A stretch of 32,000 nucleotides of DNA from Methanothermobacter marburgensis str. Marburg (GTDB lineage Archaea; Methanobacteriota; Methanobacteria; Methanobacteriales; Methanothermobacteraceae): contig NC_014408.1 of assembly GCF_000145295.1 (NCBI RefSeq), positions 1,140,001 through 1,172,000 on the forward strand. Direction: 5' to 3'. Of the stretch, positions 22,501 through 31,933 are shown one piece after another. Every line of letters begins with the position of its first letter. Within the stretch, counting starts at the first letter, position 1. The translations under genes were made by a program, and so were the position numbers. Under the pieces are notes generated by a model. The model had not been told where the DNA came from and ran no database searches. It saw only the letters and a list, made by a program, of their open reading frames with translations.

Positions 22501-22581
22501 GATATCACTCAAAGAGAATATTCCAGTAAAATAGTTATAGGGAGACCATTAATTTATAACTATAAGTTTTGAGGTGTCAGT

Positions 22582-28028: not shown

Positions 28029-28090
28029 CAATCTTACCTCCTGTTAGAATGAGTGATATGAGACAGATGTATATCTATTAATCTGGTGCA

Positions 28091-28102
28091 CATATATAAA
28101 AG
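28091..28102. promoter_or_regulatory. Near-palindromic TATA element (CATATATAAAAG / CTTTTATATATG), possibly serving both divergent genes (aIF5A and pdaD)
   Basis: It is the only strong A/T element in the 136-nt divergent gap. It lies about 63 nt from each start codon (28028 on minus, 28165 on plus). Confidence 0.35.
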
Positions 28103-28164
28103 CTTTATAGAATCAGTGCCTCTGAATTGTGTGATTGAATTGAATCTGATAAGAAGTGATTGAA

Positions 28165-28626: not shown

Positions 28627-29472
28627 ATGGAAGAATCAGACATCTACTACTGGAAGAGCATCGCAGTTAAAATGGCCGAGCAGGTTGAAAAGGCTGTTGC
28701 TCCCCTTGTAGGAACTCCAGATGCCGGGGAGATAATCAAAATGGGAGCCGACGGAACACCCACAAAACTCATAGACCTCGTTGCAGAGGATGAGGCCATA
28801 GGTGTGCTTGAGAACACAGATAGGCCCGTCACGATAATAAGTGAGGAGATAGGTATTCTCCACATAAACCAGGAGCCCCCGGATGAACCCAGAATAATCT
28901 TCGTTGTGGACCCCCTCGATGGTACAAGCAATGCAATAAGAAACATACCATTCTACGGTATCTCAGTGGCTGTTGCGGAATATATCCCTGGAGGCGACCT
29001 CCCCTCCCTCAACAATGTCGTCATGGGTTTCGTGAAGAACTTTGCAACGGGAGACCTTTACTGGGCAATAAGAGATCAGGGAGCCTTTCTGAATGATAAA
29101 AAAATCTGCGCATCAAGCCAGAACTCCCTGGATAGGACCTCCCTCGGTGCATTCATCTACGGCACGAGATTCCGGAGGGTTGATAGCATCTGCAGGGTGA
29201 TCCGCCGGATGCGCATTCTGGGCTCCGTGGCCCTTGAACTCGCATACGTTGCAAGCGGCTCATATGACGCCTTCATGGACCTGAGGGAGAATCTGCGAAT
29301 AGTCGACATAGCCGCATCCAAGCTAATCGTGGAGGAGGCAGGTGGAGTGGTGACAAATGAGCGGGGCGAATCAATAGACGGCCTGCTAAATGTCAAGGCG
29401 AGGACCTCACTTATCGCGGCGGGAAACATGGAACTCCACAAAAAGATAATGCAGACCCTGGAGGCCATATGA
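28627..29472 (+). CDS. suhB: Inositol monophosphatase/fructose-1,6-bisphosphatase family phosphatase (candidate NADP phosphatase)
   Basis: VVDPLDGTSNA carries the DPxDGT metal motif. The downstream WAIRDQGAF and GSVALELAYVASG match the IMPase fold. Confidence 0.85.
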   Translation: MEESDIYYWKSIAVKMAEQVEKAVAPLVGTPDAGEIIKMGADGTPTKLIDLVAEDEAIGVLENTDRPVTIISEEIGILHINQEPPDEPRIIFVVDPLDGTSNAIRNIPFYGISVAVAEYIPGGDLPSLNNVVMGFVKNFATGDLYWAIRDQGAFLNDKKICASSQNSLDRTSLGAFIYGTRFRRVDSICRVIRRMRILGSVALELAYVASGSYDAFMDLRENLRIVDIAASKLIVEEAGGVVTNERGESIDGLLNVKARTSLIAAGNMELHKKIMQTLEAI

Positions 29473-30320
29473 TGCGTATAGGTATAATAGCCCGCTTTGA
29501 TGTGCCCGAAGCCGTTGAACTTGCAGGTAAGGTGGCCTCATTCCTTCTGAACAGGGGTGTTGAACTGAGTGTTGACCTGAAGGTCGCAGAGAAGCTACCG
29601 GAACTCCTTGAATACGGAAAGGACATCAGGGACATGGATGTCGACATGATACTGACCATTGGGGGGGATGGGACAATACTCCGGACCCAGAGCCTCATAG
29701 AGGGTAAGGAGATACCCATACTTGGAATAAACATGGGCACTGTCGGTTTCCTCACAGAGGTCGACCCTGAGAACGTCTTCTCGGCCCTGGAGGATGTTCT
29801 TATTGGCAACTATGCTGTTGAGAGGAGAACACTCCTCAGCGTATACCATAACGGTGAACTTCCATCAGCCCTCAATGAGGTTGTTATGATGACCAGGAAG
29901 CCCGCCAAGATGCTCCATATAGAGATATCCGTTGACGATGAGGTGGTCGAGGAGCTCAGGGCGGATGGTATAATCATAGCAACACCCAGCGGTTCAACAG
30001 CGTATTCCATGTCTGCGGGGGGTCCAATAGTGGATCCCCGTGTGGAGGCCTTTCTTATAGTCCCCATCTGCCCCTTCAAGCTTAGCGCCAGACCACTGGT
30101 TGTCTCCAATAAAAGTGTCATCAGGGTCAAGCTCTTGAGGAAGGGTAAGAAGGCCATCGCGGTGATTGATGGGCAGTACGAGGAGGAGATCAACCACATG
30201 GAAGAGGTTGTATTCAAAAAGTCAGATCACTGCGCCCACTTTGTAAGGCTCAGTAAGGACTTCTACAGGAAGGTGCGTGAGAAGCTCATAGAGGGGGGTA
30301 TAGACTCAATAAAGAGTTAA
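29469..30320 (+). CDS. ppnK: NAD kinase
   Basis: Family motifs GGDGTILR, NMGTVGFLTE and ATPSGSTAYSMSAGGPIV. The ATG overlaps the phosphatase stop (ATGA at 29469-29472). Confidence 0.9.
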   Translation: MMRIGIIARFDVPEAVELAGKVASFLLNRGVELSVDLKVAEKLPELLEYGKDIRDMDVDMILTIGGDGTILRTQSLIEGKEIPILGINMGTVGFLTEVDPENVFSALEDVLIGNYAVERRTLLSVYHNGELPSALNEVVMMTRKPAKMLHIEISVDDEVVEELRADGIIIATPSGSTAYSMSAGGPIVDPRVEAFLIVPICPFKLSARPLVVSNKSVIRVKLLRKGKKAIAVIDGQYEEEINHMEEVVFKKSDHCAHFVRLSKDFYRKVREKLIEGGIDSIKS

Positions 30321-30389
30321 AGCTGATTCTAAGGGCCTTGTGGTCTCAATGGTTAACCAAAGCCATTTAACTGGACTAATGTTATACAG

Positions 30390-30443
30390 ATGCCCAAAGA
30401 CCTCAAAACCATCTCAAAACCCCCAAAAAGGTTATACAGATGA
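30390..30443 (+). CDS. Putative uORF1, 17 codons (MPKDLKTISKPPKRLYR)
   Basis: ATG at 30390 and TGA at 30441-30443, which overlaps the next ATG (ATGA). There is no evident SD. Its coding status is untested. Confidence 0.25.
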   Translation: MPKDLKTISKPPKRLYR

Positions 30444-30493
30444 CCAATATCTCTAATAGTATTCCAAAACCCCCTAAAAGGTTATACAGATGA
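30440..30493 (+). CDS. Putative uORF2, 17 codons (MTNISNSIPKPPKRLYR)
   Basis: ATG at 30440 and TGA at 30491-30493, which overlaps the main-ORF ATG (ATGA). It is preceded by the same AAGGT-N7-ATG arrangement as the main ORF. Confidence 0.3.
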   Translation: MTNISNSIPKPPKRLYR

Positions 30494-31812
30494 CCAAAGA
30501 TCTGAAAAATGTTTCAAAACCCCTTGTTGTTGACCTCACACATGGTGGAGTTACCATTGCCCGTGAACTGAAAAAAATAGCGGACCATGTCCTGGCATGG
30601 GACATATACGGGACACTGAAGGGCTCTGACCATGAAATGCTCCTTGAAATGGGCATCGATGAGGTCGATGGTCCCGTTACTGGATCCACTGTAATAGCAC
30701 CTGTTCACTGCCCGGTTAAAGCAGATATAACCCACCATGAGATAACAGGCCTTCTGCTGGGCCCCTGGAAGGAAGCACGTGGGATACCTGTGGTTGAGGT
30801 TACAGGCGTAAAGGGTAAGACCAGCGCGGTATGGATACTCAGAAAGATCATGGAGAACCTGAATCCTCTCATCCTGAGCAGCCTGGGGTCCTATGCGGGT
30901 TCTGAACTCCTGAGGAGGGATATAAGCATAACCCCCGCCAGTATGATTGAGACCGTGAAGCTTGCAGGTCCCCGTGATTATGGTTCAGCCATCTTTGAGG
31001 TCTCCCTTGGTGGCACGGGCCTTGCAGATGTGGGTGTGCTGACAAATATAGCCGAGGACTACACCATAAGAAGGGGCACATCAAGGGCCAGTTCCGCCAA
31101 GAGGCAGATATTCAAAAGCAGAATGGTCTGCTGCGACCTTCAGGCATTCAACAGGTACTACCGGAATTTTGGGGATAAAACAAACACATTCTCGGTTGAT
31201 GCTGGTGCCAGTGTCCATGCCACCGATATCAGGTACGGCCTTGATTCCACGGTGGCCAGTGTCAGTGTGGAGGACCTTAAGACCATTGATGGTGACCGGA
31301 TCAACACAGAGTTTGGAATTGAAACATTTGCACCGGCAGAGCACCATCTATCAAACGTCCTTGCCGCGGTCAGCGCCGCTCTCACACTTAACCTGGATGT
31401 GAGGGACATCCGGAGGAGGGTTAAGGGCTTCCAGGGGATACCTGGCCGCACATCAATCAGAAAACTGGATGGCTCAAGCATAATAGAGGAGGTGAACCCT
31501 GGTCTGAATGTGAAGGCCGTCGAGTACACACTGAAAATGGCAGAGGACCTCCCTGATCCTGCCGTGATCATAGGTGGAAGGTACGGGGTTACCTGTGAGG
31601 ATATAGATGAGGACAGACTCTCTGGAGTTCTCAGAGAATTCAGTGACCTCAACATCATGTTCACCGATGAACTGGGGTACAGTATAATGAGAAAAACCCG
31701 TAAAAACAGCCCCTACTTTAAGTCCCCTGATGATGCACTGAAGGCTGCCCTTGAACATGAAACCGTGATCCTGATTTACAGGTCAGAGTACCGTGACCTC
31801 TCAAGAAGATGA
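30490..31812 (+). CDS. cfbE: Mur-ligase-family protein, most likely coenzyme F430 synthetase CfbE-like (alternatively a pseudomurein peptide ligase)
   Basis: VEVTGVKGKTSAVWIL is a Mur-ligase P-loop variant. An N-terminal Rossmann-like domain and a C-terminal domain are present, total 440 aa. The gene sits immediately upstream of hemC. The CfbE assignment is from memory of the family, not from a search. Confidence 0.5.
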   Translation: MTKDLKNVSKPLVVDLTHGGVTIARELKKIADHVLAWDIYGTLKGSDHEMLLEMGIDEVDGPVTGSTVIAPVHCPVKADITHHEITGLLLGPWKEARGIPVVEVTGVKGKTSAVWILRKIMENLNPLILSSLGSYAGSELLRRDISITPASMIETVKLAGPRDYGSAIFEVSLGGTGLADVGVLTNIAEDYTIRRGTSRASSAKRQIFKSRMVCCDLQAFNRYYRNFGDKTNTFSVDAGASVHATDIRYGLDSTVASVSVEDLKTIDGDRINTEFGIETFAPAEHHLSNVLAAVSAALTLNLDVRDIRRRVKGFQGIPGRTSIRKLDGSSIIEEVNPGLNVKAVEYTLKMAEDLPDPAVIIGGRYGVTCEDIDEDRLSGVLREFSDLNIMFTDELGYSIMRKTRKNSPYFKSPDDALKAALEHETVILIYRSEYRDLSRR

Positions 31813-31846: not shown

Positions 31847-31853
31847 TTTTTTT
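31847..31853 (+). terminator. T7 run downstream of the Mur-ligase-like gene
   Basis: ATTGGGTTTTTTTAATAAC lies about 35 nt after the TGA at 31810-31812. Confidence 0.45.
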
Positions 31854-31870
31854 AATAACCGTGACTTTTT

Positions 31871-31884
31871 AAAAACTTATAAAT
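31871..31884 (+). promoter_or_regulatory. BRE/TATA element AAAAACTTATAAAT for hemC
   Basis: Located 49 nt upstream of the TTG at 31934. It is the same 14-mer as at 6946-6959 (minus strand). Confidence 0.45.
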
Positions 31885-31933
31885 AGGATGCCATAAATTT
31901 TTCAAGTGATTAACGTTTACTGGAGATGATTCA

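What the first reader, a model, noticed from the sequence alone, without database searches (positions are those of the whole stretch)
30381..30530. Triplicated 50-bp translation-initiation module builds a chain of two 17-codon uORFs joined by ATGA overlaps to a CfbE-like Mur-ligase gene
Three head-to-tail 50-bp units begin at 30381, 30431 and 30481, each opening with GTTATACAGATG and each carrying its own ATG (30390, 30440, 30490). Units 1 and 2 encode ORFs of exactly 17 codons, MPKDLKTISKPPKRLYR and MTNISNSIPKPPKRLYR. Their TGA stops overlap the next ATG (cagATGAcc). The result is uORF1, then uORF2, then the 440-aa main ORF, linked by two identical stop/start overlaps. Unit 3 is the genuine 5' end of the main gene (MTKDLKNVSKPLVV...), so the gene's own initiation region plus its first ~13 codons was duplicated twice. 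Divergence is mosaic. The 5' half of unit 1 still resembles unit 3 (MPKDLKTIS versus MTKDLKNVS). The 3' halves of units 1 and 2 (CAAAACCCCC[A/T]AAAAG followed by GTTATACAGATGAC) are almost identical. That preserved part both encodes KPPKRLYR and supplies the AAGGT-N7-ATG initiation context for the next cistron. No oligo-T terminator lies between the NAD kinase stop (30320) and 30390, so read-through transcripts would carry both uORFs. Equal uORF length, preserved frame and preserved overlap geometry look like selection for termination-reinitiation coupling or a leader-peptide mechanism rather than a decaying duplication. I know of no described uORF cascade on F430/Mur-ligase-type genes in methanogens. 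An alternative reading is three phased (5 helical turns) copies of an operator or weak TATA-like site (AAAAGGTTATACA).
Basis: seen in the sequence. Interest (0 to 1): 0.8.

Follow-up and report, generated by a model that had tools for sequence, protein, structure and literature searches.

The report
Variable tandem duplication at cfbE start
The start region of the coenzyme F430 synthase gene (cfbE) of Methanothermobacter marburgensis is present in three tandem copies, but related strains show this is a fast-changing, roughly neutrally evolving tandem repeat rather than a conserved chain of regulatory mini-genes.

Summary
Three head-to-tail 50-bp units lie at 30381-30530. Two 17-codon upstream ORFs each end in an ATGA overlap with the next ATG, and the third ATG (30490) starts cfbE.

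- All ten distinct alleles from the M. marburgensis clade (cfbE DNA 89-100% identical) carry extra copies of the cfbE start region. Unit period varies (46, 48, 49, 50, ~53, 59, 69 bp) and copy number is 2-4.
- All three frame relations occur. Some alleles have ATGA overlaps. Some have a 14-codon ORF stopping 14-24 nt short of the next ATG. One has in-frame copies with no stop. Some have 29-32-codon ORFs running 44 nt into cfbE out of frame.
- One allele has lost the unit ATG (ATT).
- The orthologue of uORF2 diverges at about the neutral rate: 22%, against 12-20% at four-fold sites.
- Two strains differing by 5 SNPs in 4.3 kb differ by 49 bp inside the array.
- M. thermautotrophicus and M. wolfeii have no repeat and only 11 or 19 nt between ppnK and cfbE.
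- The duplicated codons encode a non-conserved N-terminal tail. The AGGU Shine-Dalgarno (SD) match is no better than background, and no RNA structure or Rfam family was found.

Best reading: a lineage-specific, tolerated tandem repeat, resembling mycobacterial MIRU-VNTRs in appearance. A role as a promoter or expression tuner is not excluded.

The parts
29469..30320 (+). ppnK (NAD kinase), the gene upstream of the array. In M. thermautotrophicus and M. wolfeii its stop lies only 11 or 19 nt from the cfbE start.
   Evidence: NCBIfam NF002984, 447 bits. Orthologous loci L009-L015.
30321..30380 (+). 60-nt spacer specific to the M. marburgensis clade. It contains the GGTTAACC palindrome (30351-30358) and ATTTAACT (30366-30373). 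No oligo-T run is present.
   Evidence: Alignment of 10 alleles. The spacer is absent from M. thermautotrophicus and M. wolfeii. It shows 13-17% divergence between Marburg and L039, which is about neutral. THM-2 lacks 17 nt of it.
30381..30430 (+). Repeat unit 1, of 'type A' body, the body that forms the real cfbE start in most other strains. It carries the uORF1 ATG at 30390. It has no AGGT motif upstream.
   Evidence: SD duplex energy -3.0 kcal/mol.
30390..30443 (+). uORF1: 17 codons, MPKDLKTISKPPKRLYR. Its TGA stop overlaps the uORF2 ATG (ATGA at 30440-30443).
30431..30480 (+). Repeat unit 2, of 'type B' body. It is an old, diverged copy, orthologous to the upstream unit of L039/L040, where the ATG has become ATT.
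30440..30493 (+). uORF2: 17 codons, MTNISNSIPKPPKRLYR. Its TGA stop overlaps the cfbE ATG (ATGA at 30490-30493).
   Evidence: A near-identical metagenomic contig (L037, 8 differences in 4.3 kb) carries a nonsynonymous N-to-S change here.
30481..30530 (+). Repeat unit 3, the genuine 5' end of cfbE: a weak AGGT motif, the ATG at 30490 and 11 non-conserved codons. Homology with the other units ends at about 30523.
   Evidence: The NCBIfam CfbE profile starts at residue 12. The N-terminal tail is not conserved in homologues.
30490..31812 (+). cfbE, coenzyme F430 synthase, 440 aa.
   Evidence: NF033197 equivalog, 431.6 bits against a cutoff of 250. 100% identical to WP_013296078.
31847..31853 (+). 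T7 run after the cfbE stop, of the kind that serves as an archaeal terminator. It shows what is missing between ppnK and cfbE.
   Evidence: Sequence read.

Best explanation
The array is a lineage-specific tandem duplication, a minisatellite or VNTR, of cfbE's own start region. Each unit holds a weak AGGT motif, the ATG and the first ~11 codons, which encode a dispensable N-terminal tail.

Inferred origin: in the ancestor of the M. marburgensis clade, ppnK and cfbE, previously 11-19 nt apart, were separated by a ~60-nt spacer. Since then the array has turned over by slippage or unequal recombination.

Shown: copy number, unit length and unit type differ between close strains. Copies are homogenised within a genome in some lineages. 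In others, including strain Marburg, they have diverged and become stable.

The two 17-codon uORFs of strain Marburg follow automatically from a 50-bp period. That period is 2 modulo 3, and each unit reads ...AGATGA at its ATG, so the frame from the previous ATG meets the TGA of the ATGA.

Inferred mechanism in strain Marburg: no terminator lies after ppnK, so read-through transcripts would carry the uORFs. Ribosomes that start on them, inefficiently because the SD match is no better than background, stop on the AUGA and can restart on the next AUG. The extra copies would therefore be tolerated. They would not be regulatory.
For: 1. Clade restriction. M. thermautotrophicus (L009-L012) and M. 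wolfeii (L013-L015) have 11- and 19-nt gaps and no repeat.
2. Variable geometry. Ten alleles at 89-100% cfbE DNA identity show periods of 46, 48, 49, 50, ~53, 59 and 69 bp, with 2-4 copies. Upstream ORFs may end at ATGA, end 14-24 nt before the next ATG, be fused in frame, or run 44 nt into cfbE out of frame.
3. Fast turnover. KEPCO-1 (L005) and CP166185 (L006) differ by 5 SNPs in 4.3 kb yet by 49 bp in the array.
4. Homogenisation within genomes, including lineage-specific substitutions shared by all copies in Kamch and in L035.
5. Neutral rate. Marburg unit 2 and its orthologue in L039 differ by 11 substitutions and 1 indel in 50 nt (22%). Four-fold sites of cfbE and ppnK differ by 11.6% and 19.7% between the same genomes. 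The L039 copy has ATT in place of ATG.
6. Dispensable codons. The duplicated codons lie outside the CfbE profile, which starts at residue 12. M. wolfeii CfbE starts directly at VDLTHGG. In 92 of 169 homologues the DLTHGG-type motif starts after only six residues, against fourteen in the M. marburgensis clade.
7. Weak SD. Duplex energy is -3.8 kcal/mol for uORF2 and cfbE and -3.0 for uORF1. The window background mean is -4.6, and ppnK and suhB score -9.3 and -10.7.
8. No RNA structure (z = -0.03), no Rfam match, and no terminator or inverted repeat.
Against: None of the ten alleles is single-copy, even though contraction should be easy where copies are identical. This could mean that at least one upstream copy is useful, or simply that re-duplication is frequent.

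In the Marburg allele the junction CAAAACCCCC[A/T]AAAAGGTTATACAGATGACC is almost unchanged while the unit cores differ at 11 of 18 positions. This could reflect constraint on the junction. It could also reflect partial gene conversion or a mosaic of old unit types.

The ATGA geometry occurs in four alleles, including deeply separated ones (K4 and Marburg, 90.7% cfbE identity), so it may be ancestral.

No transcript or translation data exist for this locus. Copy numbers in metagenome-assembled genomes may be under-assembled.
Confidence: 0.6

Rival explanations
1. Promoter or 5'-UTR provision. The unit junction AAAAAGGTTATACAG would act as a weak archaeal BRE/TATA element. In a tandem array the junction of one unit sits 46-69 bp upstream of the next unit's ATG. 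Transcription would then start about 24-47 nt before the real ATG. The duplication would have given cfbE its own promoter after the spacer separated it from ppnK. The upstream ATGs would lie outside that transcript, so their frames would be irrelevant.
For: GTTATACA matches TTTATATA at 6 of 8 positions. Two likely real promoters in the same window score the same: CTTATAAA before hemC and GTTATAAA before the gene ending at 22512. Its distance to the real start codon (59 nt) lies within the 26-75 nt range of the best TATA-like matches upstream of other genes in the window. An A-rich BRE-like tract precedes it. The model is frame-independent, which fits the observed loss of frame conservation and the absence of single-copy alleles. 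THM-2 has AATATTAT at the equivalent position.
Against: The TATA-like motif is not conserved. It reads GTTATGCAG in L039/L040 and GGTACACAG at the internal junctions of the Kamch allele. The upstream copy and the spacer evolve at about the neutral rate. No transcription start data for Methanothermobacter were found. TATA boxes are easy to match by chance in AT-rich spacers.
Confidence: 0.2
2. The uORF chain would be a selected translational device: ribosomes loaded on uORF1 and uORF2 are passed to cfbE by termination-reinitiation at the ATGA overlaps, or the leader peptides regulate cfbE.
For: The geometry exists in Marburg, L037, K4 and THM-2 (17-18 codons, ATGA overlap). ATGA overlaps support tight coupling in archaea (PMC6728339). 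No terminator lies between ppnK and the array. cfbE itself has only a weak SD, and its relatives sit 11-19 nt from the ppnK stop, so coupling may matter for this gene.
Against: Six of ten alleles lack the geometry. Four of them have a 14-24-nt gap, and gaps of about 20 nt nearly abolish reinitiation (PMC10666635). One is an in-frame fusion. Three have 29-32-codon ORFs that overrun the cfbE ATG out of frame, and in one of these the unit ATG is ATT. Peptide sequences and tails are not conserved, and the single SNP in L037 uORF2 is nonsynonymous. The uORF2 orthologue diverges at a neutral rate. uORF1 has no SD, and uORF2's SD is no better than background. There are no alternative hairpins.
Confidence: 0.1
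3. Expression-tuning (contingency-type) locus. Slippage would change copy number and period, switching cfbE between coupled, gapped, N-terminally extended and uORF-occluded states. That would give heritable variation in F430 synthase level, on which selection acts.
For: The array mutates much faster than point mutation. The different alleles have different predicted translational consequences. No single-copy allele was seen.
Against: No evidence that expression differs between alleles. Diverged alleles (Marburg, THM-2) are stable: L016 and L017 are identical to the window and L037 differs in the array by a single substitution. There is no known need for phase-variable F430 synthesis. The model adds nothing beyond a neutral VNTR without expression data.
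Confidence: 0.07
4. An array of phased operator sites for a DNA-binding regulator.
For: Direct repeats at 50-bp spacing in strain Marburg, and a GGTTAACC palindrome in the spacer.
Against: The period ranges from 46 to 69 bp, so helical phasing is not kept. There are no inverted repeats inside the units. The spacer evolves about neutrally, and THM-2 lacks 17 nt of it.
Confidence: 0.03

Closest known systems
Mycobacterial interspersed repetitive units (MIRU-VNTR)
   Same: Both are tandem units tens of bp long, lying inside operons next to a start codon, with copy number that varies between strains. A short ORF inside the repeat ends with a -4 nt (ATGA-type) overlap on the downstream gene, so translation of that gene is little disturbed (PMC12548453, section 11). 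The Marburg, K4 and THM-2 alleles have this layout.
   Different: MIRUs are a dispersed, apparently mobile family found at many loci. This unit is a local copy of the gene's own 5' end. No other copy was found in the 32-kb window. The -4 coupling geometry is kept in only 4 of 10 alleles. The host is an archaeon.
Translational coupling by termination-reinitiation at ATGA overlaps
   Same: The stop/start overlap is identical (ATGA, -4 nt). This type of overlap has been shown to couple translation in Haloferax volcanii and E. coli (PMC6728339).
   Different: The documented cases are conserved pairs of real genes, often subunits of complexes (PMC10666635). Here the upstream ORFs are pseudo-copies of the downstream gene's N-terminus. 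They have weak or absent SD and their geometry is not conserved.
Leader-peptide attenuation and regulatory uORFs
   Same: Short ORFs lie upstream of a biosynthetic gene on the same strand.
   Different: There are no alternative hairpins (z = -0.03), no terminator, no regulatory codon run, no peptide conservation and no Rfam leader family.
Bacterial contingency loci (repeat-mediated phase variation)
   Same: A repeat tract at the 5' end of a gene changes length and reading frame between close strains.
   Different: Known contingency repeats have 1-7 nt units and switch surface or restriction genes on and off. Here the units are 46-69 bp, the real ORF is never disrupted, and the gene is a core cofactor-biosynthesis enzyme.

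Membership tests
CfbE (coenzyme F430 synthase), for the downstream gene | Full-length match to the NCBIfam equivalog model NF033197 above its curated cutoff | tested here: met
   431.6 bits against a cutoff of 250, covering residues 12-434. The Mur_ligase_M domain is present.
Termination-reinitiation coupled uORF cascade | Stop/start overlap (-4 or -1 nt) between each uORF and the next cistron | tested here: met
   ATGA at 30440-30443 and 30490-30493 in the window.
Termination-reinitiation coupled uORF cascade | Geometry (overlap, frame, length) conserved in orthologous loci | tested here: not met
   Only 4 of 10 alleles keep an ATGA overlap. The others have 14-24-nt gaps, in-frame fusion, a 44-nt out-of-frame overrun, or a lost unit ATG.
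Termination-reinitiation coupled uORF cascade | The first uORF has its own efficient initiation signal | tested here: not met
   The uORF1 upstream region gives -3.0 kcal/mol against the anti-SD, and uORF2 gives -3.8. The window background mean is -4.6. The anti-SD sequence was taken from general knowledge.
Termination-reinitiation coupled uORF cascade | The uORFs lie on the mRNA and are occupied by ribosomes | not testable with these tools
   No transcription start or ribosome profiling data for Methanothermobacter were found.
Leader-peptide attenuator | Mutually exclusive RNA hairpins and a terminator downstream of the leader ORF | tested here: not met
   Fold z-score -0.03. No terminator-like site and no inverted repeats.
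VNTR / minisatellite | Head-to-tail units of 10-100 bp | tested here: met
   TRF period 50, 2.9 copies. Periods of 48 and 59 in relatives.
VNTR / minisatellite | Copy number or length polymorphism between closely related strains | tested here: met
   2-4 copies across alleles. A 49-bp difference separates strains with 5 SNPs in 4.3 kb.
VNTR / minisatellite | Homogenisation of copies within a genome (concerted evolution) | tested here: met
   0-1 differences per 33 nt between copies in KEPCO-1, DP, K4, L035, L036 and L038, and 0-3 in Kamch. Lineage-specific substitutions are shared by all copies in Kamch and L035. This does not hold for Marburg, THM-2 or L039, whose copies have diverged.
MIRU-type dispersed repeat | The same unit is present at many loci in the genome | tested here: inconclusive
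   No other copy in the 32-kb window. The rest of the genome could not be searched.
Archaeal BRE/TATA promoter | An A/T-rich 8-bp TATA box with a purine-rich BRE immediately upstream | tested here: inconclusive
   AAAAAG + GTTATACA matches at 6 of 8 positions, equal to the hemC and 22512 candidates in the window. It is degraded in L039 (GTTATGCA) and Kamch (GGTACACA).
Archaeal BRE/TATA promoter | A transcription start about 23-27 nt downstream of the TATA box | not testable with these tools
   No transcription start data.

The most novel reading that the evidence does not exclude
The array is kept by selection as a promoter or leader cassette, or as an expression-tuning repeat. At least one upstream copy would be needed to express cfbE once the spacer separated it from ppnK. 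Slippage-driven changes in period and copy number would then set different F430 synthase levels in different M. marburgensis-clade strains, including those used for biomethanation.
Probability: 0.2. Interest if true: 0.55.

Novelty: new member of a known kind. Interest (0 to 1): 0.3.

Why it matters
CfbE catalyses the last step of coenzyme F430 synthesis, and F430 is the cofactor methyl-coenzyme M reductase needs to make methane (general knowledge). M. marburgensis and its relatives KEPCO-1, THM-2, DP and K4 are laboratory or cultured isolates.

- The start region of this core gene is one of the fastest-changing stretches near it. It is a ready-made strain-typing marker.
- It also warns against start-codon annotation errors. 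The in-frame Kamch allele could be called 32 residues longer.
- Equal length and tidy ATGA overlaps in one genome look like design. Here they are by-products of the repeat period.
- If the minority reading is right, this would be an archaeal case of repeat-driven tuning of a cofactor-biosynthesis gene. That would be modestly interesting, not transformative.

Tried and rejected
- **Metagenome scan.** Searching for the spacer motif CAATGGTTAACCAAAGCC gave 17 loci, all chance matches with no cfbE context. The scan was wasted.
- **Genome-collection scan.** Searching with the CfbE protein returned only one locus. Orthologues were obtained instead through protein cluster members and exact-protein look-ups.
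- **Literature.** Searches for Methanothermobacter transcription start maps or cfbE expression data found nothing usable. One query was rejected for syntax.
- **Rfam.** No match at E <= 1.
- **RNA folding.** No structure beyond shuffled controls, so riboswitch and attenuator ideas were rejected.
- **Bacterial-type scan.** It found no terminator and only one promoter-like match, inside cfbE and at chance level. It is not informative for archaeal promoters.
- **Leaderless cfbE mRNA.** I considered one driven by the AT-rich core of unit 2 (TAATAGTA, about 32 nt upstream of the ATG). That core is absent from most alleles, so I dropped the idea.
- **Conserved spacer operator or promoter.** I considered the ~45-nt spacer element. 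Its divergence is about neutral and THM-2 lacks 17 nt of it.
- **Relic ppnK stop.** The 59-bp units might retain a relic of the ppnK stop (AAGGTTAA compared with M. thermautotrophicus AAGGGTTAA). A 10-nt AAAAAAGGTT micro-duplication explains this equally well, and that micro-repeat is present three times in L006. The question is left open.
Full report
**1. The observation**

The window comes from Methanothermobacter marburgensis. The 440-aa ORF at 30490-31812 is 100% identical to WP_013296078.

- Tandem Repeats Finder reports one array at 30381-30523: period 50, 2.9 copies, 80% matches. It is the only repeat with a period above 15 bp in the 32 kb.
- The repeat finder places three copies at exact 50-nt spacing.
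- GTTATACAGATG occurs three times, against 0.05 expected.
- The sequence and its translation confirm two 17-codon ORFs at 30390-30443 and 30440-30493. Their TGA stops overlap the next ATG as ATGA.
- The downstream ORF is CfbE (NF033197, 431.6 bits, cutoff 250). The upstream ORF is NAD kinase.
- There is no T-run and no hairpin terminator between 30321 and 30390.

One refinement: the AAGGT motif precedes uORF2 and cfbE but not uORF1.

**2. Orthologous loci**

I retrieved orthologous ppnK-cfbE junctions through one genome scan and through exact-protein look-ups of members of the CfbE 90% cluster and neighbouring clusters.

Outside the M. marburgensis clade there is no repeat. In M. thermautotrophicus the ppnK stop lies 11 nt from the cfbE ATG (TAA-AGGTTGTGTCC-ATG, protein MKFNISRPLVTDLTHGG). 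In M. wolfeii the gap is 19 nt, and the gene starts with GTG directly at VDLTHGG.

Inside the clade (cfbE DNA 89-100% identical), every genome has a ~60-nt spacer after ppnK and then two or more copies of the cfbE start region. The copies are arranged differently in each allele:

| Allele (locus) | Period x copies | Upstream ORF outcome |
|---|---|---|
| Marburg (window; L016 and L017 identical; L037 has one SNP) | 50 x 3 | Two 17-codon uORFs, ATGA overlaps |
| K4 (L007) | 50 x 2 | One 17-codon uORF, ATGA overlap |
| THM-2 (L002-L004) | ~53 x 2, upstream copy diverged | 18-codon uORF, ATGA overlap |
| KEPCO-1 (L005), L038 | 59 x 3 | 14-codon uORFs (MTKDLKTISKPKKG), TAA stop 14 nt before the next ATG |
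| DP (L008) | 59 x 4 | Three 14-codon uORFs, same 14-nt gap |
| CP166185 (L006) | 69 x 2, AAAAAAGGTT micro-repeat x 3 | 14-codon uORF, 24-nt gap |
| Kamchatka MAG (L001) | 48 x 3 | In frame with cfbE, no stop |
| L035 | 46 x 2 | 29-codon ORF running 44 nt into cfbE out of frame |
| L036 | 49 x 2 | 30-codon ORF running 44 nt into cfbE out of frame |
| L039/L040 (two independent assemblies) | 49 x 2 | Unit ATG is ATT; a nearby ATG gives a 32-codon ORF overrunning cfbE by 44 nt |

Period, copy number, uORF length, frame relation, overlap and even the upstream start codon all vary. The peptide tails also vary (KRLYR*, KG*, KGTQM..., KGYTDDQ...).

**3. Tempo and mode**

- KEPCO-1 and CP166185 differ by 5 SNPs in 4.3 kb, yet by a net 49 bp inside the array. 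Where copies are identical, length changes are far faster than point mutation.
- Where copies have diverged, as in Marburg, the array is stable. Two independent read-set assemblies are identical to the window. L037 differs in the array by a single substitution, a nonsynonymous change in uORF2.
- Unit bodies are homogenised within genomes. Copies in KEPCO-1, DP, K4, L035, L036 and L038 differ at 0-1 of 33 positions, and those of Kamch at 0-3. In Kamch and L035 all copies share lineage-specific substitutions. This indicates re-duplication or gene conversion.
- At least three old unit types exist. Type A (AAAGACCTCAAAACCATCTC) is unit 1 in Marburg and is the real cfbE start in most other strains. 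Type C (AAAGATCTGAAAAATGTTTC) is the real start in Marburg and THM-2. Type B (AATATCTCTAATAGTATTCC) is Marburg unit 2 and has an orthologue in L039/L040. Unit shuffling has therefore even changed the real N-terminus of CfbE (MTKDLKTISKP, MTKDLKNVSKP, MTRDLKNISKP, MTKNLKTITKP).

**4. Constraint**

Marburg unit 2 and its L039 orthologue differ by 11 substitutions and one indel in 50 nt (22%). Four-fold degenerate sites differ by 11.6% in cfbE and 19.7% in ppnK between the same two genomes. The spacer differs by about 13-17%. The upstream copy therefore evolves at about the neutral rate and has lost its ATG in one lineage.

The duplicated codons encode a tail that is not part of the conserved enzyme:

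- The family profile starts at residue 12.
- In 92 of 169 homologues the DLTHGG-type motif starts after only six residues, against fourteen in the M. marburgensis clade.
- M. wolfeii lacks the tail altogether.

The mosaic divergence in the Marburg allele is statistically real. It is explained at least in part by unit 2 being a different, old unit type, not a recently decayed copy of unit 1.

**5. Initiation signals and RNA**

- Against the 16S 3' end GAUCACCUCCU (taken from general knowledge), the region before uORF2 and cfbE pairs with only -3.8 kcal/mol (AGGU), and the region before uORF1 with -3.0.
- The background mean for the window is -4.6. ppnK scores -9.3, suhB -10.7 and pdaD -7.4.
- The array therefore does not multiply a strong ribosome-binding site.
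- The weak cfbE SD, together with the 11-19-nt gaps in sister species, suggests (inference) that cfbE was ancestrally translated in close succession to ppnK.
- The leader has no significant fold (z = -0.03), no Rfam match and no inverted repeats. It is A/C-rich (GC skew -0.46).

**6. Mechanism**

Most likely (about 0.6), this is a tolerated tandem duplication that turns over by slippage or unequal recombination. In strain Marburg the 50-bp period is 2 modulo 3. Because each unit reads AGATGA at its ATG, the frame from the previous ATG meets the TGA there. The neat 17-codon ATGA chain is an automatic consequence of the period, not a selected design. On ppnK read-through transcripts, ribosomes that happen to start upstream can restart at the overlaps. 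ATGA coupling is documented in archaea (PMC6728339) and falls off sharply with gaps of about 20 nt (PMC10666635). That makes this allele harmless. The steps shown are the repeat itself, its polymorphism, its neutral rate and the weak SD. The steps inferred are read-through transcription and reinitiation.

Two facts keep functional rivals alive.

- No allele is single-copy.
- The junction GTTATACA, preceded by an A-tract, matches the archaeal TATA consensus as well as likely real promoters in this window (6 of 8 positions). It lies 46-69 bp upstream of the real ATG in every allele. That would place a transcription start 24-47 nt before cfbE and downstream of the upstream ATG. This promoter model (about 0.2) is frame-independent, which fits the data. 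It is weakened by GTTATGCA in L039 and GGTACACA in Kamch, and by the neutral divergence.

**7. Comparison with known systems**

The closest analogue is the mycobacterial MIRU-VNTR. These are tandem units inside operons whose internal ORF couples at -4 nt to the downstream gene, so that insertion is tolerated (PMC12548453). The present array shares the appearance and the polymorphism. It differs in being a local copy of the gene's own start, not a member of a dispersed family, and no other copy was found in the window. Its coupling geometry is not conserved. It also fails the tests for a leader-peptide attenuator. I file it as a new member of a known kind, an intergenic or 5'-end VNTR.

**8. 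Verdict**

Interest is modest at 0.3. The practical outcomes are a strain-typing marker, a start-codon annotation caveat for cfbE in this clade, and a set of natural alleles ready for reporter tests.

Noticed in passing
L001 2688-2843: In the Kamchatka Methanothermobacter MAG the 3' end of ppnK (its last ~8 codons plus ~38 nt downstream) is itself tandemly duplicated: period 62, 2.5 copies, 98% identical. It lies just upstream of the cfbE array, so this intergenic region seems generally prone to 50-60-bp tandem duplication.
   Followed up: partly
L006 ~1440-1470 (CP166185), compared with L005: A 10-nt micro-repeat AAAAAAGGTT is present 3 times in L006, 2 times per unit in the 59-bp alleles and once in the 50-bp alleles. 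It accounts for the 50-to-59-to-69 bp period changes and creates the TAA stop of the 14-codon uORFs.
   Followed up: partly
L009-L015 around position 1480-1501; window 30468-30492: cfbE has only a weak AGGT motif or no SD at all across Methanothermobacter. In M. thermautotrophicus and M. wolfeii it lies 11 or 19 nt from the ppnK stop, which suggests ancestral dependence on close succession to ppnK. M. wolfeii uses a GTG start directly at VDLTHGG. Alternative database annotations of 439 aa (M. thermautotrophicus) and 442 aa (M. wolfeii clade) start further upstream.
   Followed up: partly
window 30351-30373: The clade-specific spacer contains a perfect 8-bp palindrome GGTTAACC (30351-30358) and ATTTAACT (30366-30373). 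It looked conserved across most alleles. However, it diverges at about the neutral rate between Marburg and L039, and THM-2 lacks 17 nt of it.
   Followed up: partly
window 31847-31885: A T7 run (31847-31853) follows the cfbE stop. It is followed by AAAAAC-TTATAAATA (31871-31885), a good BRE/TATA candidate for the downstream hemC gene, whose apparent start is a TTG near 31925 after GGAGATGA.
   Followed up: no
window 28080-28115: The divergent intergenic region before pdaD carries two back-to-back strong TATA-like elements: TTTATATA on the minus strand and AAAGC-TTTATAGA on the plus strand. These are probably the promoters of the pdaD-suhB-ppnK(-cfbE) unit and of the divergent gene ending at 28031.
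   Followed up: no
window 30490-30522 compared with L005, L007, L008, L035 and L001 at 1501 or 3001: The real N-terminus of CfbE switches between repeat-unit types among strains (MTKDLKNVSKP, MTKDLKTISKP, MTRDLKNISKP, MTKNLKTITKP, MTKDLKTISKL). Recombination within the array apparently rewrites the first 11 residues of the enzyme.
   Followed up: partly
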